A DNA stretch of 64,000 nucleotides from a virus. The notes beneath the pieces were generated by a model. It did not search any database. It was not told the origin of the DNA and saw only the letters and a list, made by a program, of their open reading frames with translations. Below, in pieces: positions 1,316 to 64,000 of the stretch (its first letter is position 1; each line of letters starts with the position of its first letter). Both the position numbers and the translations under genes were made by a program. Where the stretch lies: positions 134,397 to 198,396 of the IMG/VR virus record IMGVR_UViG_3300047311_000323. One strand, written 5' to 3'.

Positions 1316-1335
1316 GAAAAGATATGTAATTATTG

Positions 1336-1782
1336 CTATTTGATGATTTGAACCGTCTTTTTCTTAAGGGTTCCTAGCCTAAGATTTCTTTTTGCTTTTC
1401 GTTCCTCTGACAGCTTCTTTTCCAGTTTCTGGTTAAAACTGACGATTGCTTGCCAAGAAAACCCTAATCTGTTGTCTAAATCACCTTCGTGAAGCCCAAT
1501 GATAAATCCAGTATTATCAATACTGTAAGAATCAATAGAAATTCGTTGGTACCCCTGATCTTCTAACAAGGATACCAACGACTCCACAACATCACTCCAA
1601 CAAATCCGACCTCCGCTTTTAGGGGAGGATCTTTTAAGAGTAGCTTTGTAACCTGCTTGTGGTAACAAACTATCACAAAGCTTCTTAAAGTCTTCTAATG
1701 TAGTACCTTCGGGACCACTAAAGAAATAGTGCTCCTGCCAGTCGTAGTCAGAATATACTAGGTCAAAAACGTTGTCGCTCAT
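1336..1782 (-). CDS. Hypothetical protein (ends TAG-CAA-TAA)
   Basis: 148-aa ORF, ATGA overlap with the upstream gene. Confidence 0.75.
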   Translation of the reverse strand: MSDNVFDLVYSDYDWQEHYFFSGPEGTTLEDFKKLCDSLLPQAGYKATLKRSSPKSGGRICWSDVVESLVSLLEDQGYQRISIDSYSIDNTGFIIGLHEGDLDNRLGFSWQAIVSFNQKLEKKLSEERKAKRNLRLGTLKKKTVQIIK

Positions 1783-10436: not shown

Positions 10437-10511
10437 TGGTATCCCCGGTTGGACTCGAACCAACATAAGCCGCCTTAGGAGTGCGGTGCCCATCCCTTGG
10501 ACCACGGGGAC
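10437..10511 (-). tRNA. tRNA-Arg(CCU)
   Basis: GTCCCCG/CGGGGAT acceptor stem, CT-CCT-AA loop, GTTCGAG T-loop, encoded CCA. Confidence 0.9.
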
Positions 10512-12387: not shown

Positions 12388-12417
12388 ACTGACTATATAT
12401 CATTTTAGTAGTTTTAG

Positions 12418-12491
12418 TGCGCCGTGTGGGATTTGAACCCACGACCGTTCGTTTTAGAGGCGACCGCTCTGCCAGGCTGAGCTAACGGCGC
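12418..12491 (-). tRNA. Amber-suppressor-type tRNA, anticodon CUA (copy 1; G1-C72, A73, no encoded CCA)
   Basis: GCGCCGT/ACGGCGC acceptor stem, GCTC/GAGC D-stem, loop CT-CTA-AA, GTTCAAAT T-loop. The anticodon stem has only 3 Watson-Crick pairs. Confidence 0.85.
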
Positions 12492-12658: not shown

Positions 12659-13669
12659 TCAACTTAATGCCATCATCCTATCAATGGATATTCTGGCTTG
12701 GTTCATTAATTCTTCTGACATATTGATCTGCGGTGTCAGGTCTCTCAAAGAGAGATATACCTTCTCCAAGGTATTCTTCTTCATGAACGGACACTCGTTG
12801 CACGCACAACTTGCTTCAGGCGGTGCAGGAATGAAAATCTTATCTGGAGCGGCCTTCTGCATTTGATGCAAAATACCTGCTTCTGTTGCTACAATGAATT
12901 CTTTGTTTGGACTGCTGACAGCATATTTGAGAATGCCAGTCGTCGATCCAATGAAGTCTGCCATCTTCAAGATAGGTTCTTCACATTCGGGGTGAGCCAA
13001 AACTAGTGCATTAGGATTACGAGTCTTGATACCAATCAGTTTGCGCTCACTGAATGTCTCATGAACGATGCAGGCTCCTTGCCACATGATCATAGGGATG
13101 CCAGTTTTCTTCATGATATAGTTGCCAAGATTTCTATCTGGAGCAAAGAGAATCTCCTTGCCAGACTTGGCAGCTTCACGAACAATCTTTTCTGCATTGG
13201 ATGACGTACAAATGTAATCTGACAATGCTTTGACTTCAGCCGAACAGTTGATGTAACTGACTACCACTGAATTGGGGTGCATGCTCTTCCAAGCGGCGAA
13301 TTTATCAGCAGGGCAACCATCTGCCAGAGAACAACCAGCTTCCAAGTCAGGAAGGACTACAGTTTTCTGAGGGGAGAGGATCTTGGCTGTCTCAGCCATA
13401 AAGTGCACGCCAGCAAAACAGATAACATCAGCATTAGTCTTTGCAGCTTCTTGGGAGAGTTGTAAGGAATCTCCGATGAAGTCAGCAACATCTTGAATTT
13501 CAGAATCCTGATAGTAGTGGGCCAAGATAACGGCATTGCGTTCTTTTTTGAGGAAAGCAATTCTCTCTTCAATGTCGAAGATCGATAGTCCGTCATACGT
13601 GCCATCAGCCTGGGCCTTACGTTTCGCTTCTTTGAATTCACTTGCTGAGAAAATAGGTAGTTTATTCAT
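12659..13669 (-). CDS. nadA: Quinolinate synthase A
   Basis: [54 protein letters not shown]. Confidence 0.97.
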
Positions 13670-13835: not shown

Positions 13836-13909
13836 TGGCTCCCGCAGAGGGGCTCGAACCCCCTTCTTCCGTTTTAGAGACGGCGCTCTACCAGTTGAGC
13901 TATGCGAGA
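13836..13909 (-). tRNA. Amber-suppressor-type tRNA, anticodon CUA (copy 2; U1-A72, G73, CCA encoded)
   Basis: TCTCGCA/TGCGGGA acceptor stem, CCGT/ACGG 4-bp anticodon stem around CT-CTA-AA, GTTCGAG T-loop. Confidence 0.85.
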
Positions 13910-13913
13910 ATAG

Positions 13914-14034
13914 GGCCCCAGGGTTGGATTCGCACCACCCTCCGTTCGGTTAAATACCGACTGCTCCTTCATAACCTTACTTTCTTTCCCACCACGTTCG
14001 TGGGCGCTTTCGGGTTTTACTGAGCTACCGGGGC
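13914..14034 (-). ncRNA. tRNA-Lys(UUU)-like gene with a 55-nt D-loop and atypical anticodon and T loops
   Basis: GCCCCGG/CTGGGGC acceptor stem, GCTC/GAGC D-stem enclosing 55 nt, TCGG/CCGA stem around TATTTAA, T-loop TGCGAAT. Confidence 0.65.
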
Positions 14035-14041
14035 ATATCTG

Positions 14042-14523: not shown

Positions 14524-14746
14524 CGTCGTCTTCCTCGGCCCCTCTTTTCATAAGGGCATTCAATTCTTCACGTGGAATATCGGGCCAATTATCAGGTCTT
14601 CCATCTTTAGGAAGTGGGAAAATAGCTCCAGCCTCTTTATCATGGAAAATGCAAAGCAATCCTGCTTTACCTTCATGAACATAAACGCCAGTGGGCATAC
14701 CACAAAAACATTCAGGCCCACGCTCTTTATCAATCCATTGACTCAT
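14507..14746 (-). CDS. Hypothetical protein
   Basis: 79-aa ORF with a GAGGT SD. Confidence 0.7.
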   Translation of the reverse strand: MSQWIDKERGPECFCGMPTGVYVHEGKAGLLCIFHDKEAGAIFPLPKDGRPDNWPDIPREELNALMKRGAEEDDDEQEG

Positions 14747-15093
14747 TTTCCACCTCTCAAAGCTAGGGGCAATCGGCTACAAAGCTTTTTAGACTTAGGA
14801 CCGGGAGCCAAAGCAATCGCCGTAATCTGATTATCAATATCAGGCTCTCTGAATACAGAAAAACTAATATCATGGAACGTAGCCTGTTTCGCTAAGTCCA
14901 TCAGTTCCTGCTCATCAGTCACTGACAACAATCCAAGGTAATTGGATTGCTCAAACCACAACTTATCAATCTCCGGATGATCTGCCGTAAACTGACGCAA
15001 AGCATGCATGCTTTGAACTGCTTGATATCCTGGTTCCAAATCTGCACGAGTAATAACATAAAGCTTGTCGCCTTCTTTAACCTATAGACACAT
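14743..15093 (-). CDS. Pth2 (peptidyl-tRNA hydrolase II)-like protein with an in-frame TAG at codon 4
   Basis: GGAGA-5nt-ATG TGT CTA TAG GTT AAA GAA GGC GAC AAG CTT TAT GTT. KLYVITRADL..GYQAVQSMHA and FREPDIDNQITAIAL...LPLAL fit the PTH2 pattern. Confidence 0.75.
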
Positions 15094-15673
15094 GATTATC
15101 TCCAAATAGTTTGCGGCAAATTGCTTTACCGCGCTTGTTAATTTGACTCCACTTAATCTTGAATGATTCAGATTCAATGCCGCCAAACATCTTTGCATTG
15201 CTATGCACCTCAGCTAGCCCGGCCAACAACAATGTCGTTGCCTCTCGGTGCTGACAAAACTCATCTACGTCTACTGCCTTCATGGTATGAATCTTCATAT
15301 CATGCAGAATGAGTTTAGCAATAGTCTTATTAGAACTAATCCTCAGCCATGTCTGATAAGACATCCAAGGATGGTTAGGGAAATGTCTACGACCCCGTTC
15401 ATCAACAGTTAGACAGTAGGGCTTGCCGCAATCATGAAAGACTGCGTAACCCGCAATAATATCGTCTGGAAGCAAGGAGGCTAACAACTGCTCTCGATAC
15501 TCACTCATCCAGTCGGGTAATCTCCAACCTTCGCCTATCTGGCCGGTTTTCAAAAATGAAATCAATTCAAAAATGTGCTCTTTAACAGAGACGCCGTGTT
15601 GGTACACGGATTGGCTATCCGTTTGGGGACAGCTTTGCATATCAGAAATTAAACGATTCTATAGGTAACTCAT
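15077..15673 (-). CDS. HD-domain phosphohydrolase with an in-frame TAG at codon 5
   Basis: ATG AGT TAC CTA TAG AAT CGT... runs in frame into MQSCPQ; SVYQHG, FHDCGKPYC, HFPNH motifs. Confidence 0.75.
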
Positions 15674-15691
15674 AGTGCTTTATATATCCAG

Positions 15692-16183
15692 TTATTGATT
15701 GATTATTTCTTCTAACAAAACTCTAGAATTCATTAACTCTAGTGGTTTGTGCGTATCTAGTTCCCAAGTTACATGGTGACGTGTGCCGCCCATATAACGC
15801 TCAAAATGTAGCATTGTCGTGCCATTACCCTTATCCTTTTTTAGAACAGGGACAACAGTAGCAATCAGCTCACCTTCTGTAACTTTATATCCCACTTTGA
15901 TATGTGGCAGTGGTTTGATTTCACAATAACCAAGCACACAATGAGCGCCTTCAATTAGAATAGACCAAGTCTCTAACCACCATGGACTTGGAGGATTAGC
16001 ATTGGGCCCAGTGAAGTTCTCAATATGAACTACCTCACCATCCTCAATAGCCTGAATCTCTTGGCCGAAGCCACAATAGATGTCTACGCCTGGGTGGTAG
16101 TAGAAGGAACGTTTGAAAGCAAAATCGCCCACTGCTCCCTCTTCGGGAATAGCGGGCGTTTTATCTCTAAGTGGCCATTTCAT
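15692..16183 (-). CDS. M23-family peptidase (peptidoglycan hydrolase-like)
   Basis: HPGVDIY (HxxxD), IQAIEDGEV, MLHFE. Confidence 0.8.
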   Translation of the reverse strand: MKWPLRDKTPAIPEEGAVGDFAFKRSFYYHPGVDIYCGFGQEIQAIEDGEVVHIENFTGPNANPPSPWWLETWSILIEGAHCVLGYCEIKPLPHIKVGYKVTEGELIATVVPVLKKDKGNGTTMLHFERYMGGTRHHVTWELDTHKPLELMNSRVLLEEIINQ

Positions 16184-16703
16184 GTTTTGCTACTGCTTTA
16201 CAAAATTCTATTAGTTGTATGTCAGAAAATGATTGACGAGCCAGGTTTGCCATTACAGATATGAAACGCACATTTCCCTGCATATAACCTTTTGAGTTAT
16301 CGATTCTGTCAATGCTCGCGTTGTACGGACTATACTCTTTCCAGCCATCTGAATCGTACGGAAGGATTAAGTCTAATCCGGTAAATGGACACTTGCCATT
16401 TTGTGATTCCCATAAAACCTTTAGATGTTCAATGGTCAAATCACATCCATAGTTTTTATTGCGATCTCTATACTCGGCACGCAACACGAACCATCTAAAT
16501 GGTGTAAACTCATCTCTTCGATTATCAGAGCGAAGATTTTCAGGATTACCTTTTCTAGGATTATCCTCGTTGTTTTTAATCGCTGCACAAGTTCGGGTAC
16601 AGAAAAATTCTGTCCTGTTGCGCTTGATTTGTCGATTATATTCTCGAAGGTCTTTGGCAAAAGAATTGCCACAGCTACCACACTTTATTTTAATCGTCTT
16701 CAT
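16167..16703 (-). CDS. Putative homing endonuclease (N-terminal Zn-finger, C-terminal beta-beta-alpha-Me nuclease)
   Basis: CGSCGNSF..FCTRTC; KCPFTG..SIDRIDNSKGYMQGNVRFIS. Confidence 0.7.
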   Translation of the reverse strand: MKTIKIKCGSCGNSFAKDLREYNRQIKRNRTEFFCTRTCAAIKNNEDNPRKGNPENLRSDNRRDEFTPFRWFVLRAEYRDRNKNYGCDLTIEHLKVLWESQNGKCPFTGLDLILPYDSDGWKEYSPYNASIDRIDNSKGYMQGNVRFISVMANLARQSFSDIQLIEFCKAVAKHEMAT

Positions 16704-16746: not shown

Positions 16747-17098
16747 TGGTGGAGATGCAGGGTACTGCCCCCTGGTCCGCGATATGCCCTTATCAAAACT
16801 CATTCACAAACTTAGTTGATATTAGCGTCATCAACAACGCTGCAAGAATTTGCTCCGGCTGGCTATCTACTGTTAATCTTGTTGTTGAACATCGTAGCCC
16901 TGTTCATCAACCAGCTTTGTGGGTTGGCGTTCCTTTGATTACTCAAGCAGTCTTATCTGGGAACGAATGGTGCCGTTAGGCGGCCATTGCAAATGCATTA
17001 TCGTTTGCATTTATACGTCAATTGCTTTTAGAGGGGCAATCATCCTCTGTTTGCGTCATTCTGATAACTCGTTACCACGTCGAATCTATGTCATCCCC
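16747..17098 (-). ncRNA. ssrA: tmRNA (one-piece), tag peptide ANDNAFAMAA
   Basis: GGGGATG/CATCTCC-ACCA acceptor stem with G3-U70, GATTCGAC 5' motif, tag ORF 17008-16976 ending in TAA. Confidence 0.95.
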
Positions 17099-17127: not shown

Positions 17128-17201
17128 TGGAGCTAATGATGAGAATCGAACTCATGTAGCTGCGTTACGAGTGCAGCGTAATACCACTATACTACATTAG
17201 C
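17128..17201 (-). tRNA. tRNA-Thr(CGU)
   Basis: Cloverleaf, CT-CGT-AA, CCA. Confidence 0.9.
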
Positions 17202-17204
17202 GTG

Positions 17205-17279
17205 TGGAGCTGATTGTGGGAATTGAACCCTCATTTCCGCGTTACTAGGGCGGAGTAATAGCCGTTATACTAAATCAGC
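17205..17279 (-). tRNA. tRNA-Thr(AGU)
   Basis: Cloverleaf, CT-AGT-AA, CCA. Confidence 0.88.
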
Positions 17280-17282
17280 TTA

Positions 17283-17357
17283 TGGAGCCCAAGTCGAGAG
17301 TCGAACTCGATTTTCGTCTTTACCAAAGACGGGTAATAACCGTTATACTACGTGGGC
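17283..17357 (-). tRNA. tRNA-Thr(GGU)
   Basis: Cloverleaf, TT-GGT-AA, CCA. Confidence 0.9.
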
Positions 17358-17366
17358 TTATCGGTT

Positions 17367-17440
17367 TGGAGCTGATGCCGAGAATCGAACTCGGTTCTCC
17401 TCGTTACAAGGGAGGAATAATACCATTATACTAAATCAGC
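17367..17440 (-). tRNA. tRNA-Thr(UGU)
   Basis: Cloverleaf, CT-TGT-AA, CCA. Confidence 0.9.
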
Positions 17441-18449: not shown

Positions 18450-19076
18450 TTAACGTGGTTGTTGTGGCTGTACTGGATTGTATTGAGCCAATTGTCTTAA
18501 CGTATTGGAAATATTATCCTTTATGTTACCAGGCATTTTTTGTGCCACCGGACCAGTTGGGCTTAATTGGCTTAGATTTAGATAAGGTTGTGATTGAAGG
18601 GTAGCAGCATTCCATGCTGCAATCTGATTTCCAGTTACTTTTTGAGGGAATTGATTGCCGCCATTCAAATAGGATTGGTAAATCAATTTGGACAGATTAA
18701 GTAGGTTTTTAGCGTCTACTGAGGATTCTCCGCTAGGATCTACGTTAAAGTTATTGTTCTTGAGAGTTTGCCAGTTATGCTTGCCCTCACTAGAATAATG
18801 TAGGGCCGTATTGAGTAGCCTTGCCAGACTGTCTATAAAGCCGACGCTAGCCGAATTGTATACATTGCCCATCCATCCCCAGGCCCCAGAGGCAGTAAAG
18901 GCTGGCGGAGGCGGTATAACGGCCTGTGTGGTTGACGTAGGGGTGGTTGGAGTAGTTGGTGATGGTTGAGTAGTCGGGGAGGCAGGAGAAGCCGGAGAAG
19001 CTGGAGACGCAGGTGCGCCTGGAACAGCTTGTGCCAATTTAGCCAGATATCTCAAACGTAACTTCAAGGGTAACAT
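18450..19076 (-). CDS. Hypothetical protein with LAKLAQ N-terminus and PAS/PT repeats
   Basis: PASPASPASPASP and PTTPTTPT linker. Confidence 0.8.
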   Translation of the reverse strand: MLPLKLRLRYLAKLAQAVPGAPASPASPASPASPTTQPSPTTPTTPTSTTQAVIPPPPAFTASGAWGWMGNVYNSASVGFIDSLARLLNTALHYSSEGKHNWQTLKNNNFNVDPSGESSVDAKNLLNLSKLIYQSYLNGGNQFPQKVTGNQIAAWNAATLQSQPYLNLSQLSPTGPVAQKMPGNIKDNISNTLRQLAQYNPVQPQQPR

Positions 19077-19091
19077 CTACATAATACTATT

Positions 19092-26747: not shown

Positions 26748-26784
26748 AGATACGGGGTATATATCGATTGAGTGGTGAGGTCAC

Positions 26785-35405: not shown

Positions 35406-35450
35406 ACATAGTATATATCGTAATTAATAGCACAGATCCTCACCGCATTG

Positions 35451-36692
35451 CTACTTTGCTAATTCTAGCATTTTATCCAGGAAGTTATTTCCCCAGGTAC
35501 CATCCTTCATGCGGGACTTCATGATGAAGTCCTTCATATTCGAAGCTTTACCATCGAACATCTGAAAGAAGGGGGCCGTCCACAAGTTCAGGGACTTGTA
35601 GGTGACGGTTGTTAGAACAGCAAAAGTCTTCTTGTCACCGGGCATCAGTTTGTCAGCTTCAGCCTTGATAGAGGTGTAAGCCTCATCATGCTGCTTGATA
35701 ACCCTCTGAACACCCACCTTGATGGTCTGTAGATTCTTGACAATCTCTTCTGGTAGCATAGGAATGACATCGTCATCCTTTTCCGTCAGAATCAATTCCA
35801 CCATGTTACGTGGTGAAGTTGCCAGCGCATCACGCACCTTGTTGTAAGCCACGTAGGCTGCGTTCTTGACCTTGATTCGATTGAACTGTCCGTCTCGAAC
35901 AACAACGCCTTCATGCTCCATTGGGTTCAAGGAAGACACCCAATCAACAAGATCCTGTACAGTGGTGTATGTATGTGCTTGTACCAATGGTAACTTCTTT
36001 GGCAGAGCATCGATAATTGGGTGGTCGAAGCTTAGTTCACCAAGGGTGACCAGGTTTCGAACTGCCAACAACGTTACACCGTTGTTTGGGTAGTCTACAA
36101 CGATACGGTTGTATCGAGTAGTCAATTCAAAGCAGTAGGTGTGATGCTTATCAAGGGACCACTTGAAGCCCTCGAAGCCATAACCAGTGGTCTCCTCCAA
36201 AGCCTTCTCGAACAGAGTTCGGAAGGTGAAGAGGCCATTATCCATCAGCAAGTCTGCTTCTGGCACAGAACGAGTAGCTACGCACCACTTGTCCGTGAAC
36301 GGGTCATGGTACACAATGCACAAAGTTCCATCCAGCTTTTCCAGCACAGCCAACTTGGGGTCACTCCAATTGATATCAGCGGCAGAGCCCTGACCATGAT
36401 TGAAGAAGCGCTTCATTGGGTAAGCAAGAATCTTAGTCTTACCTGGACTGATGTGATCGTAGTTGGCGCGACCATTAACCTGCTGAGCATCGCGCGTGAA
36501 CGACTTGCCATCCTCAGCAGACAAGATTAGTCCGCGAGTTTCTTGAGACAAGGGATCAGACTCTCTTGCTTCAATCTGATCATAGTTCAAGGAGAACTTA
36601 TGGCCAGACTTAGAGAATGACGCATAGACACCGTGGTCTCGTGCCAAATCCCCAAACGTATGAGTTTCCAGATACTTTTGGACGAGTAACAT
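35451..36692 (-). CDS. T4 Rnl1-like RNA ligase
   Basis: YPMKRFFN, LEKLDGT, FELTT, EGVVVRD, IKVK. Confidence 0.88.
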   Translation of the reverse strand: MLLVQKYLETHTFGDLARDHGVYASFSKSGHKFSLNYDQIEARESDPLSQETRGLILSAEDGKSFTRDAQQVNGRANYDHISPGKTKILAYPMKRFFNHGQGSAADINWSDPKLAVLEKLDGTLCIVYHDPFTDKWCVATRSVPEADLLMDNGLFTFRTLFEKALEETTGYGFEGFKWSLDKHHTYCFELTTRYNRIVVDYPNNGVTLLAVRNLVTLGELSFDHPIIDALPKKLPLVQAHTYTTVQDLVDWVSSLNPMEHEGVVVRDGQFNRIKVKNAAYVAYNKVRDALATSPRNMVELILTEKDDDVIPMLPEEIVKNLQTIKVGVQRVIKQHDEAYTSIKAEADKLMPGDKKTFAVLTTVTYKSLNLWTAPFFQMFDGKASNMKDFIMKSRMKDGTWGNNFLDKMLELAK

Positions 36693-62944: not shown

Positions 62945-63019
62945 TGGTATCCCCAACAGGAATTGAACCTGTACTGTTTGTTTCGAAGACAAACGTGATA
63001 TCCGTTTCACTATGGGGAC
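62945..63019 (-). tRNA. tRNA-Arg(UCG)
   Basis: Cloverleaf, CT-TCG-AA, CCA. Confidence 0.9.
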
Positions 63020-63031
63020 ATAGTTTCTTCT

Positions 63032-63106
63032 TGGTACCCTTAGTAGGAATCGAACCTACATCTTCGGTTTCGTAGACCGACGTTCTATCCGTTGAACTAT
63101 AAGGGC
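63032..63106 (-). tRNA. tRNA-Arg(ACG)
   Basis: Cloverleaf, CT-ACG-AA, CCA. Confidence 0.92.
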
Positions 63107-63121
63107 ATGGATAGACTTACT

Positions 63122-63196
63122 TGGCACCTCTGGTAGGATTCGAACCTACATATGTCTGCTTAGAAGGCAGATGCCCATCCCTTGGACCACAGAGGC
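63122..63196 (-). tRNA. tRNA-Arg(UCU)
   Basis: Cloverleaf, CT-TCT-AA, CCA. Confidence 0.92.
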
Positions 63197-63201
63197 GTAC
63201 T

Positions 63202-63277
63202 TGGCGACCCATACGGGAGTCGAACCCGTATTAGCAACGTGAGAGGCTGCCGTCCTGAACCATTAGACGAATGGGCC
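63202..63277 (-). tRNA. tRNA-Glu(CUC)
   Basis: Cloverleaf, CT-CTC-AC, CCA. Confidence 0.92.
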
Positions 63278-63926: not shown

Positions 63927-64000
63927 TGGTGAGCCGTACGGGTATCGATCCCGTTTTTCCTGGGTGAAAGCCAAGTGTCCTAGCCAGTAGACGAACAGCC
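63927..64000 (-). tRNA. tRNA-Glu(UUC), 5' end cut by the window edge
   Basis: CT-TTC-AC loop, atypical T-loop ATCGATA, CCA. Confidence 0.85.

What the first reader, a model, noticed from the sequence alone, without database searches (positions are those of the whole stretch)
14743..15690. Candidate amber-gated module: two adjacent genes with an in-frame TAG at codon 4-5, upstream of CUA tRNAs
Seen: the HD-domain gene reads ATG AGT TAC CTA TAG AAT (TAG at 15659-15661) and the Pth2-like gene reads ATG TGT CTA TAG GTT (TAG at 15082-15084), both in the same CTA-TAG context. The upstream ATG of the Pth2-like gene has a GGAGA SD. The upstream ATG of the HD gene sits 7 nt after GATATATA, the spacing seen at other leaderless starts, while its downstream ATG has no SD. 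The next conventional start of the Pth2-like ORF (TTG 15039) would delete the conserved KLYVITRADL strand. Two CUA tRNAs lie 0.8 and 2.3 kb downstream on the same strand. Established: Pth2 hydrolyses peptidyl-tRNA, HD domains in CCA-adding enzymes heal tRNA 3' ends, and some phages use suppressor tRNAs for recoded late genes. Inference: these two tRNA-quality-control proteins are made only when the phage suppressor is charged, giving a timing switch or feedback sensor rather than genome-wide recoding.
Basis: partly seen in the sequence, partly recalled or inferred. Interest (0 to 1): 0.93.

Follow-up and report, generated by a model that had tools for sequence, protein, structure and literature searches.

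The report
Suppressor-tRNA-gated phage tRNA-end enzymes
A large phage that otherwise uses the normal genetic code keeps a UAG stop four to five codons into two neighbouring genes for enzymes that probably act on tRNA ends. It carries two UAG-reading tRNAs just downstream, and most of 72 distant phage lineages share this design, so the enzymes are probably made only when the phage's own tRNA overrides the stop.

Summary
On the minus strand the HD gene reads ATG-AGT-TAC-CTA-TAG (TAG 15661-15659) and the Pth2-like gene reads ATG-TGT-CTA-TAG (TAG 15084-15082). Two tRNA(CUA) genes lie 0.8 and 2.3 kb downstream.

- **Not an artefact:** both TAGs are kept in the close relatives (64-91% identical), with synonymous changes around them.
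- **Widespread:** among 72 non-redundant homologue clusters, 86 of 108 HD, Pth2-like or fused gene starts have ATG, then 1-3 codons (mostly), then an in-frame TAG.
- **Anticodon matches the stop:** the only two lineages with an early TGA instead carry tRNA(UCA).
- **Standard code:** no TAG in the 198-kb contig has coding sequence on both sides. Its four credible TAG-terminated genes have a TAA 1-8 codons later.
- **Proteins:** the HD protein folds like the C-terminal half of a class-II tRNA nucleotidyltransferase. The second protein is a divergent Pth2.
- **Best reading (about 0.78):** a dedicated switch in which the suppressor tRNA competes with RF1.
- **Prior work:** I found no paper describing this. 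The XacN1 authors state that they could not find targets for its CUA tRNAs.
- **Earlier scan notes:** this scan has already noted the same design in at least 26 other genomes.
- **Open points:** readthrough itself, the inserted amino acid and the biological purpose are untested.

The parts
15077..15673 (-). HD-domain gene read from the upstream ATG (198 codons with UAG as codon 5). ATG 15673-15671, TAG 15661-15659, conserved internal ATG 15640-15638, stop TAA 15079-15077.
   Evidence: AF2 model pLDDT 95.5. Best PDB match 3wfo_A, Z 13.7, then HD phosphohydrolases at Z 7-9.5. phrog_14850. Invariant His / His-Asp / Asp columns. The segment between TAG and the internal Met is conserved as protein in relatives and in TAG-less homologues.
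15681..15689 (-). GGATATATA promoter-like motif, 7 nt upstream of the HD ATG. No Shine-Dalgarno precedes either candidate start.
   Evidence: Conserved in the nearest relatives while the 7-8 nt spacer varies. GATATATA lies 6-10 nt before an ATG at four other genes of the contig. Function inferred, not shown.
14743..15093 (-). Pth2-like gene read from the upstream ATG (116 codons with UAG as codon 4). ATG 15093-15091, TAG 15084-15082. It overlaps the HD stop.
   Evidence: Pfam PTH2 29.8 bits against a cut-off of 23, match from residue 10. Family profile against M. jannaschii Pth2 2zv3, E 1.5e-11. The 15 codons after the TAG are under protein-level conservation with many synonymous changes and, in several relatives, no start codon.
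15099..15103 (-). GGAGA Shine-Dalgarno, 5 nt before the Pth2-like upstream ATG.
   Evidence: An equivalent GGAG-type motif precedes the upstream ATG in all 12 relatives compared. Family-wide, 49 of 98 early-TAG starts have an SD placed for the upstream ATG and 2 of 98 have one placed for the codon after the TAG.
13836..13909 (-). tRNA(CUA) number 1, with encoded CCA, a U1-A72 pair and G73. It most resembles a tRNA-Trp(CCA).
   Evidence: ARAGORN. Rfam tRNA 49.2 bits. Nearest-neighbour comparison is weak.
12417..12491 (-). tRNA(CUA) number 2, a different sequence class (G1-C72, A73).
   Evidence: ARAGORN. Rfam tRNA 59.7 bits. This class is conserved in relatives L010-L012 and L067.
16747..17098 (-). 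Phage tmRNA in the same cluster. Its tag frame ends in UAA.
   Evidence: Rfam RF00023, 100.6 bits, E 4e-38. A tmRNA lies 0.8-3 kb upstream of the HD gene in 8 relatives down to 58% identity, but not in 6 more distant loci.
16161..16169 (-). Example of a TAG gene end backed by TAA one codon later (gene 16167-16703). The same occurs at 1330-1338, and with 8 codons at 35424-35453.
   Evidence: Only 4 credible genes of the contig end in TAG, and all are followed by TAA within 1-8 codons.

Best explanation
Translation of both genes starts at the upstream ATG. The ribosome meets UAG at codon 5 (HD) or codon 4 (Pth2-like). Full-length protein is made only when one of the phage's tRNA(CUA) molecules decodes that UAG in competition with host release factor 1. 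Otherwise only a 3-4-residue peptide is released. The phage otherwise uses the standard code, so this is a dedicated tRNA-operated switch on two enzymes that probably work on tRNA 3' ends: an ester hydrolase of the Pth2 type, and an HD phosphohydrolase resembling the C-terminal half of CCA-adding enzymes. The tRNA genes lie just downstream on the same strand, so message and key are probably made together. Output would then need both (AND logic), giving a delay and a steep response. Shown here: the anatomy, its conservation, the match between stop codon and anticodon, the standard code and the protein folds. Inferred: readthrough itself, the inserted amino acid and the purpose. My preferred purpose is a checkpoint that lets tRNA-end enzymes appear only when phage tRNAs are matured and charged. 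This could also be self-limiting if the enzymes deacylate the suppressor.
For: (1) Both TAGs are kept in the close relatives at 64-91% identity, with synonymous changes in the flanking codons.
(2) In 72 clusters at 90% identity, 86 of 108 HD, Pth2-like or fused gene starts have ATG, then 1-3 codons (mostly), then an in-frame TAG. In fusions of either domain order, only the first domain has it.
(3) The same holds in cultured phages: XacN1, Xoo-sp13, RAS14, RsoM2USA, ME3 and Arash, plus a mid-gene TAG in fHe-Yen9-04.
(4) tRNA(CUA) lies within 10 kb in 43 of 91 loci and was found elsewhere in the records of RsoM2USA, Xoo-sp13, RAS14 and fHe-Yen9-04 and in two complete contigs. XacN1 has CUA tRNAs according to PMC5852040.
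(5) The two lineages with an early TGA both carry tRNA(UCA), and no CUA tRNA was found by pattern.
(6) TAA, the commonest stop in these loci (989 against 161 TAG), is almost never the early stop.
(7) The base after the TAG is A in 69 cases, G in 11, C in 6 and T in 0.
(8) The SD is placed for the upstream ATG, and 65 of 98 cases have no canonical start within 8 codons after the TAG.
(9) The codons after the TAG are conserved as protein.
(10) The code is standard in the contig and in all loci. TAG gene ends are rare and backed by TAA.
(11) In 1.3 Mb of flanks, only these two families recurrently carry the early TAG.
Against: There is no direct evidence of readthrough: no proteomics, Ribo-seq or reporter data. 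The HD gene has a conserved in-frame ATG 7 codons after the TAG that could serve as a start, and annotators of relatives use it. About half of the loci show no tRNA(CUA) within 10 kb, and LR745206 gave none by my pattern, although ARAGORN misses some odd CUA tRNA-like elements. L030 has an early TAG but only a doubtful UCA call in its flank. The contig is only about 45% complete, so statements about the whole genome cover 198 kb. The lineages are related, so the statistics are nominal.
Confidence: 0.78

Rival explanations
1. Minigene or termination-reinitiation control without suppression. The 4-5-codon ORF is translated and terminated (or drops off as a short peptidyl-tRNA, as with lambda bar minigenes). 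Ribosomes then restart just downstream, for example at the ATT that often follows the TAG.
For: The mini-ORFs are 2-4 codons long with a good SD, the size class known to provoke drop-off (the bar minigene comparison is from memory). ATT/ATC/ATA follows the TAG in 48 of 86 cases. The gated gene is itself a peptidyl-tRNA hydrolase relative.
Against: Reinitiation would not care which stop is used, yet TAG is used 86 times against about 1 TAA and 2 TGA, although TAA is six times commoner as a stop. The TGA cases carry tRNA(UCA). In this window the next codons are AAT and GTT, which are not start codons. The TAG is always in frame with the conserved downstream protein.
Confidence: 0.08
2. The upstream ATG-TAG is incidental. 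HD starts at ATG 15640, and the Pth2-like protein starts at TTG 15039 or a non-canonical codon. The CUA tRNAs have another role or none.
For: ATG 15640 aligns with the annotated start of RsoM2USA gp91. ATG-x-stop shapes upstream of genes occur by chance for TAA and TGA in this genome. In mycobacteriophage IkeLoa a GTG follows ATG-TAG directly and the SD spacing fits the GTG better.
Against: The pattern persists across lineages only about 40% identical, in both gene orders and in fusions. RAS14 and many Pth2-like genes have no start before the conserved core. The SD is placed for the upstream ATG. A TTG start would remove the first Pth2 strand.
Confidence: 0.07
3. A +1 frameshift near the HD stop fuses HD and Pth2-like into one protein, as in the natural fusions. 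The ATG-TGT-CTA-TAG is then irrelevant.
For: The Pth2-like frame is +1 relative to HD and the two overlap. HD-Pth2 fusions exist in XacN1, Xoo-sp13 and RAS14.
Against: Relatives in which HD ends before the Pth2-like ATG, or in the same frame as it (L016, L024, L025), still keep SD-ATG-x-TAG. There is no slippery site: GGT-TAA-A does not allow re-pairing (read from the sequence). The HD gene shows the same early-TAG design without any upstream partner.
Confidence: 0.03
4. Assembly error or decaying pseudogenes.
For: None beyond the presence of stops.
Against: The same TAGs stand in independent assemblies of the close relatives and in dozens of distant ones. The downstream frames are intact and under protein-level conservation.
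Confidence: 0.01

Closest known systems
Stop-codon-recoded phages with phage-encoded suppressor tRNAs (TAG read as Gln, 'code 15'; Lak and crAss-like phages; model of Borges et al., bioRxiv 10.1101/2021.08.26.457843)
   Same: A phage tRNA(CUA) in a standard-code host is proposed to let in-frame TAG genes be expressed only once the tRNA is made. TAG is depleted as a stop.
   Different: In those phages tens of genes, mainly structural and lysis genes, carry TAGs at many positions and coding density under code 11 collapses. Here the code is standard. Only two gene families are affected, with one TAG each, at codons 2-8. The targets are tRNA-end enzymes next to the tRNA genes.
Orphan suppressor tRNAs of standard-code jumbo phages (XacN1, PMC5852040)
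   Same: XacN1 belongs to this very system. It has CUA tRNAs, and its ORF364 is an HD-Pth2 fusion.
   Different: [quoted passage not shown] The target lies upstream of the annotated start, behind a 2-codon ORF, and so was missed.
Synthetic feed-forward loop mediated by a suppressor tRNA (PMC7969014, listed)
   Same: Gene output requires both the mRNA and a co-induced amber suppressor, which removes leak and sharpens the response.
   Different: That design is engineered in E. coli. The arrangement here would be a natural counterpart. I read only its title and the start of its abstract.
prfB (RF2) autoregulation by an early in-frame UGA
   Same: An early in-frame stop read by one release factor acts as a sensor of termination efficiency (from memory).
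   Different: prfB escapes by a +1 frameshift and senses its own product. Here the escape is by a cognate suppressor tRNA and stays in frame.
Lambda bar minigenes and Pth
   Same: Two- to four-codon ORFs with an SD, and a functional link to peptidyl-tRNA hydrolase (from memory).
   Different: As I recall, bar minigenes end in TAA or TGA, are not in frame with a downstream gene, and act by tRNA sequestration.

Membership tests
TAG-recoded phage (genetic code 15) | Many genes carry in-frame TAG, and coding density is low under code 11. | tested here: not met
   None of 89 TAGs with open flanks has coding potential on both sides. ORF coverage under code 11 is 0.62-0.97 (mostly 0.8 or more) in 61 loci. 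The gain from reading TAG as sense exceeds the TGA control in only three loci, and then by at most 0.05.
TAG-recoded phage (genetic code 15) | Phage-encoded tRNA with a CUA anticodon. | tested here: met
   Two tRNA(CUA) genes.
Pth2 (Pfam PF01981) | Sequence match above the curated threshold over the whole domain. | tested here: met
   29.8 bits against a cut-off of 23, profile positions 2-104 of 115. Family profile against solved Pth2 2zv3, E 1.5e-11 over positions 1-101. The NCBIfam equivalog scores are below their cut-offs.
Pth2 (Pfam PF01981) | Catalytic residues, and hydrolysis of peptidyl-tRNA. | tested here: inconclusive
   The Arg-x-Asp and Gln..His-Ala motifs and an acidic residue at the Asp-Ala-Gly position (here an invariant Glu) are kept. 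The Gly-Lys-Gly-Lys loop is replaced by Pro-Gly-Tyr-Gln with a 2-residue deletion. Which residues are catalytic is recalled from memory. Activity was not assayed.
HD-domain metal-dependent phosphohydrolase superfamily | HD fold with the His...His-Asp...Asp metal ligands. | tested here: met
   Invariant or near-invariant H15, H69-D70, H90, D114 and H118. Structural matches to many HD enzymes at Z 7-9.5. No Pfam family at E<=0.01.
Class-II tRNA nucleotidyltransferase (CCA-adding) C-terminal region | Homology to the body/tail part that holds the tRNA. | tested here: inconclusive
   Best hit 3wfo_A residues 256-448: Z 13.7, rmsd 3.2 over 152 residues, about 4 Z units above the next hit. Profile E 0.0027. 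Foldseek E 0.011. Helical folds can reach such a Z by arrangement alone. tRNA binding was not tested.
Lambda bar-type minigene | SD plus a 2-4-codon ORF that acts through peptidyl-tRNA drop-off, independent of any downstream frame. | tested here: not met
   The size and SD fit. However, the stop is almost always TAG, is always in frame with the conserved protein, and co-varies with the suppressor anticodon.

The most novel reading that the evidence does not exclude
The module is a self-referential homeostat. The HD and Pth2-like enzymes act on aminoacyl- or peptidyl-tRNA 3' ends, including the suppressor's own. Their synthesis therefore rises with the amount of charged suppressor tRNA and falls when they over-process tRNAs. 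Together with the adjacent phage tmRNA, this sets the level of stop-codon readthrough and ribosome rescue during infection. It would be a natural tRNA-based feedback circuit, analogous to RF2 autoregulation.
Probability: 0.22. Interest if true: 0.9.

Novelty: new variant of a known kind. Interest (0 to 1): 0.85.

Why it matters
It gives the unexplained suppressor tRNAs of standard-code jumbo phages a concrete, conserved target. The XacN1 authors stated this as an open problem (PMC5852040). It would be a natural example of gene control by a dedicated tRNA, a design so far known mainly from synthetic biology and proposed for fully recoded phages. It corrects the annotation of two widespread phage gene families, whose starts are routinely set too far downstream or whose genes are split. 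It suggests a plausible first step toward full stop-codon reassignment. It can be tested directly in several cultured phages.

Tried and rejected
- **Genome-wide TAG recoding:** rejected.
- **Near-identity search in GenBank phages:** only tRNA-Thr matches, no close relative.
- **HD gene families:** no Pfam or NCBIfam family. Foldseek against the PDB gave only weak E-values; the VIA-align 2 search of about 48,000 PDB representatives (pdb_via_wide) was clearer.
- **Complex prediction of HD with Pth2-like:** no verdict, score 0.30 against a mark of 0.32. I make no claim about binding.
- **Amino-acid identity of the two suppressors:** nearest-neighbour comparison with 411 phage tRNAs was inconclusive, weakly Val-like and Trp-like.
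- **Odd tRNA-like element at 13912-14036:** ARAGORN with introns allowed did not call it.
- **Frameshift fusion of HD and Pth2-like:** rejected from relatives with other frame relations.
- **tmRNA as a universal part of the module:** rejected; it is specific to this clade.
- **LR745206:** my CUA-tRNA pattern found none, which does not show absence.
- **Mycobacteriophage IkeLoa:** it has ATG-TAG-GTG before its Pth2 gene and a tRNA(CUA) 250 nt downstream, but the SD spacing fits the GTG. I treat it as a lead only.

Full report
**What is there.**
The window is the last 64 kb of a 198,396-bp linear viral contig that CheckV rates about 45% complete. On the minus strand the cluster contains, in order:
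- four tRNA-Thr genes;
- a tmRNA (16747-17098, Rfam 100.6 bits);
- two ORFs, the second with an M23-peptidase match;
- the HD gene;
- the Pth2-like gene;
- small ORFs;
- a tRNA(CUA);
- nadA;
- a second tRNA(CUA);
- tRNA-Arg(CCU).

The HD frame opens ATG-AGT-TAC-CTA-TAG, followed by six codons and then ATG 15640. The Pth2-like frame opens GGAGA-N5-ATG-TGT-CTA-TAG. It has no ATG/GTG/TTG until TTG 15039, which lies inside the first conserved Pth2 strand.

**Not recoding, not error.**
A codon-position Markov model trained on the contig's long ORFs finds no TAG with coding potential on both sides. The corresponding counts are 12 for TAA and 2 for TGA, which are simply adjacent genes in one frame. 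Only four credible genes end in TAG. Three are followed by TAA after one codon and one by TAA after eight codons, as expected for a genome that tolerates amber suppression.

The close relatives from IMG/VR (64-91% protein identity) keep both TAGs. Neighbouring codons change synonymously (AGT/AGC, TAC/TAT, CTA/CTT, GAC/GAT), and in one relative a codon of the mini-ORF is lost.

**The pattern is a family trait.**
tblastn against GenBank phages and two IMG/VR scans gave 90 loci, which form 72 clusters at 90% identity.
- Of 108 HD, Pth2-like or fused gene starts, 86 have ATG, then mostly 1-3 codons, then an in-frame TAG, followed by 3-16 conserved codons before the domain core.
- The two genes occur in either order.
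- When they are fused (HD-Pth2 or Pth2-HD), only the first domain carries the TAG.
- Phages whose HD gene has no TAG (ME3, Arash, L046, L071, L073, L074, L082) have it in the adjacent Pth2-like gene.
- At least 66 of the 72 clusters have one or more gated units.
- In 1.3 Mb of flanking DNA these are the only two protein families that recurrently show the pattern. TAA and TGA controls give nothing comparable.
- All loci are standard-code.

**Link to the tRNA.**
- ARAGORN finds tRNA(CUA) within 10 kb in 43 of 91 loci.
- A pattern search of whole records then found it in RsoM2USA, Xoo-sp13, RAS14 and fHe-Yen9-04 (whose HD gene has a mid-gene TAG) and in two complete contigs.
- Three further contigs have CUA tRNA-like cloverleaves that ARAGORN does not call.
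- XacN1 has two CUA tRNAs per terminal repeat. Its authors wrote that they could not identify target genes (PMC5852040). Its ORF364, an HD-Pth2 fusion, is preceded in frame by ATG-AAA-TAG.
- The only two lineages with an early TGA in the HD gene (L063, L070) both carry tRNA(UCA), and no CUA tRNA was found by pattern. I regard this match of stop codon to anticodon as the strongest single argument for tRNA decoding.

**Where translation starts.**
- In all 12 relatives compared, a GGAG-type Shine-Dalgarno sits 5-9 nt before the Pth2-like upstream ATG.
- The more distant of these relatives have the same before the HD upstream ATG. In this phage and its nearest kin that SD is replaced by GGATATATA-N7-8.
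- Family-wide, 49 of 98 early-TAG starts have an SD placed for the upstream ATG, 2 of 98 have one placed for the codon after the TAG, and 65 of 98 lack any canonical start in the next eight codons.
- The 15 codons after the Pth2-like TAG show many synonymous differences across relatives within the conserved motif (41 synonymous and 48 non-synonymous codon differences over the whole stretch), so they are translated in this frame.
- The base after the TAG is A in 69 cases, G in 11, C in 6 and T in 0. From memory, a 3' purine favours amber suppression in E. coli.

**The proteins.**
- *HD protein.* It gives a confident model (pLDDT 95.5). Its best structural match is residues 256-448 of 3wfo, titled 'tRNA processing enzyme' with the molecule named poly A polymerase. 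From memory this is an Aquifex class-II tRNA nucleotidyltransferase. The match has Z 13.7 and rmsd 3.2 Å over 152 residues, followed by many HD phosphohydrolases at Z 7-9.5. A profile search also hits it (E 0.0027). The His / His-Asp / Asp ligands are invariant.
- *Pth2-like family.* It matches solved archaeal Pth2 end to end (E 1.5e-11). It replaces the Gly-Lys-Gly-Lys loop and has Glu where Pth2 has the Asp of Asp-Ala-Gly. An ester hydrolase acting on tRNA 3' ends is therefore likely, but the exact substrate is open.
- *Elsewhere on the contig.* It also encodes a complete 410-residue CCA-adding-type enzyme and a head-domain-only 257-residue relative.

**How it most likely works.**
Ribosomes start at the upstream ATG. 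At UAG, RF1 and the charged phage suppressor compete, and only suppression yields enzyme. The early position makes a failed attempt cost only a 3-4-residue peptide.

The tRNA genes lie downstream on the same strand, so the gate probably behaves as a coherent feed-forward AND gate, as in an engineered design (PMC7969014, seen). That would give no output from leaky or transient transcription, a delay until the tRNAs are processed, CCA-tailed and charged, and a steep response.

Why these enzymes in particular is inference. My preferred reading is a checkpoint for enzymes that touch tRNA 3' ends, possibly self-limiting. The adjacent tmRNA in this clade fits a role in coping with readthrough and stalled ribosomes.

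**Rivals.**
- Reinitiation or a minigene effect is disfavoured by the near-exclusive use of TAG, by the TGA/UCA pairing and by the non-start codons after the TAG here.
- Incidental upstream ATGs are disfavoured by conservation, SD placement and the cases with no alternative start.
- A +1 frameshift fusion is disfavoured by relatives with other frame relations that keep the motif.
- Error or decay is excluded by independent assemblies.

**Prior knowledge.**
Three full-text searches found no description of this arrangement. A 2026 jumbo-phage survey discusses suppressor tRNAs only for recoded genomes. The closest published concept is the recoding model of Borges et al..

This scan's earlier AI notes report the same design in at least 26 other genomes. 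I reached my reading before seeing them and tested its elements independently.

Points that the short summaries of those notes I was shown do not mention:
- the TGA/UCA pairing shown in both TGA contigs;
- the clade-specific tmRNA;
- the TAG-then-TAA tandem gene ends;
- the replacement of the SD by a promoter-like motif at the HD gene;
- the mycobacteriophage lead.

**Verdict.**
It is a new variant of a known kind, apparently unpublished, and directly testable in cultured phages.

Noticed in passing
window 16747-17098 (-): Phage-encoded tmRNA (Rfam RF00023, 100.6 bits) that ARAGORN did not report. Its tag frame reads roughly A-N-D-N-A-F-A-M-A-A and ends in UAA. It is conserved 0.8-3 kb upstream of the HD gene in 8 relatives down to 58% identity, but absent within 10 kb in 6 more distant loci.
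   Followed up: partly
window 13912-14036 (-): A ~125-nt tRNA-like element directly upstream of tRNA(CUA) number 1. It has a 7-bp acceptor-like stem, a D-arm-like start and a T-arm-like end around a ~60-nt structured insert (MFE -39.9). Neither ARAGORN (with introns allowed) nor Rfam calls it.
   Followed up: partly
window 19074-19082 (-): ATG-TAG-ATG directly at the start of the 208-codon gene 18450-19076. The same start-stop-start shape is kept in three homologue clusters. It may be a third, weaker amber-sensitive start, or chance.
   Followed up: no
window 1330-1338, 16161-16169, 35424-35453 (-); also contig position 131536: The only credible TAG-terminated genes all have a TAA back-up 1-8 codons later. 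Suppression would add only 2-9 residues.
   Followed up: yes
window 17128-17440, 62945-63277, 63927-64000, 10437-10511 (-): The tRNA set covers all four Thr anticodons, five Arg anticodons and both Glu anticodons, and nothing else apart from the two suppressors. Such complete sets for three amino acids may answer host tRNA-targeting nucleases. The contig is incomplete.
   Followed up: no
window 12659-13669 (-): A quinolinate synthase gene (NadA, Pfam E 7e-122) sits between the two suppressor tRNAs. In the closest relatives the two tRNAs are adjacent instead.
   Followed up: no
contig positions 59444-60673 (+) and 89553-90323 (-) (loci L121, L122): A full class-II tRNA nucleotidyltransferase (410 aa: head, RNA-binding and NucTran2_2 domains) plus a head-domain-only 257-aa paralogue. 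The free-standing HD protein resembles the C-terminal half that this paralogue lacks.
   Followed up: partly
window 15681-15688, 12394-12401, 26758-26765 (-), and contig positions 124143 and 14967: GATATATA lies 6-10 nt before the ATG of five genes, and 10 of its 12 copies are on the coding strand, although TATATA is three-fold under-represented overall. It is a candidate promoter for leaderless or very short-leader mRNAs.
   Followed up: partly
L113, L115, L116 (contigs of L038, L052, L036): Cloverleaf-like elements with a CUA anticodon loop and an enlarged D-arm that ARAGORN misses. Counts of suppressor tRNAs from standard tools are therefore underestimates.
   Followed up: partly
L120 (Mycobacterium phage IkeLoa, 91366-92064 in the record): The Bixzunavirus Pth2 gene is preceded in frame by ATG-TAG directly before its annotated GTG start, and is followed 250 nt later by an annotated tRNA(cta). 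The design may reach actinophages, but the SD spacing fits the GTG.
   Followed up: partly
L008 (Salmonella phage Arash), L006 (Acinetobacter phage ME3), L004 (Yersinia phage fHe-Yen9-04): Annotation errors caused by the TAG. The Arash 'peptidyl-tRNA hydrolase' is annotated as 50 aa, and its 'tRNA-Phe' is a CUA tRNA according to ARAGORN. ME3_195 is annotated as starting downstream of the TAG. The fHe-Yen9-04 HD gene is split into g408 and g409.
   Followed up: yes
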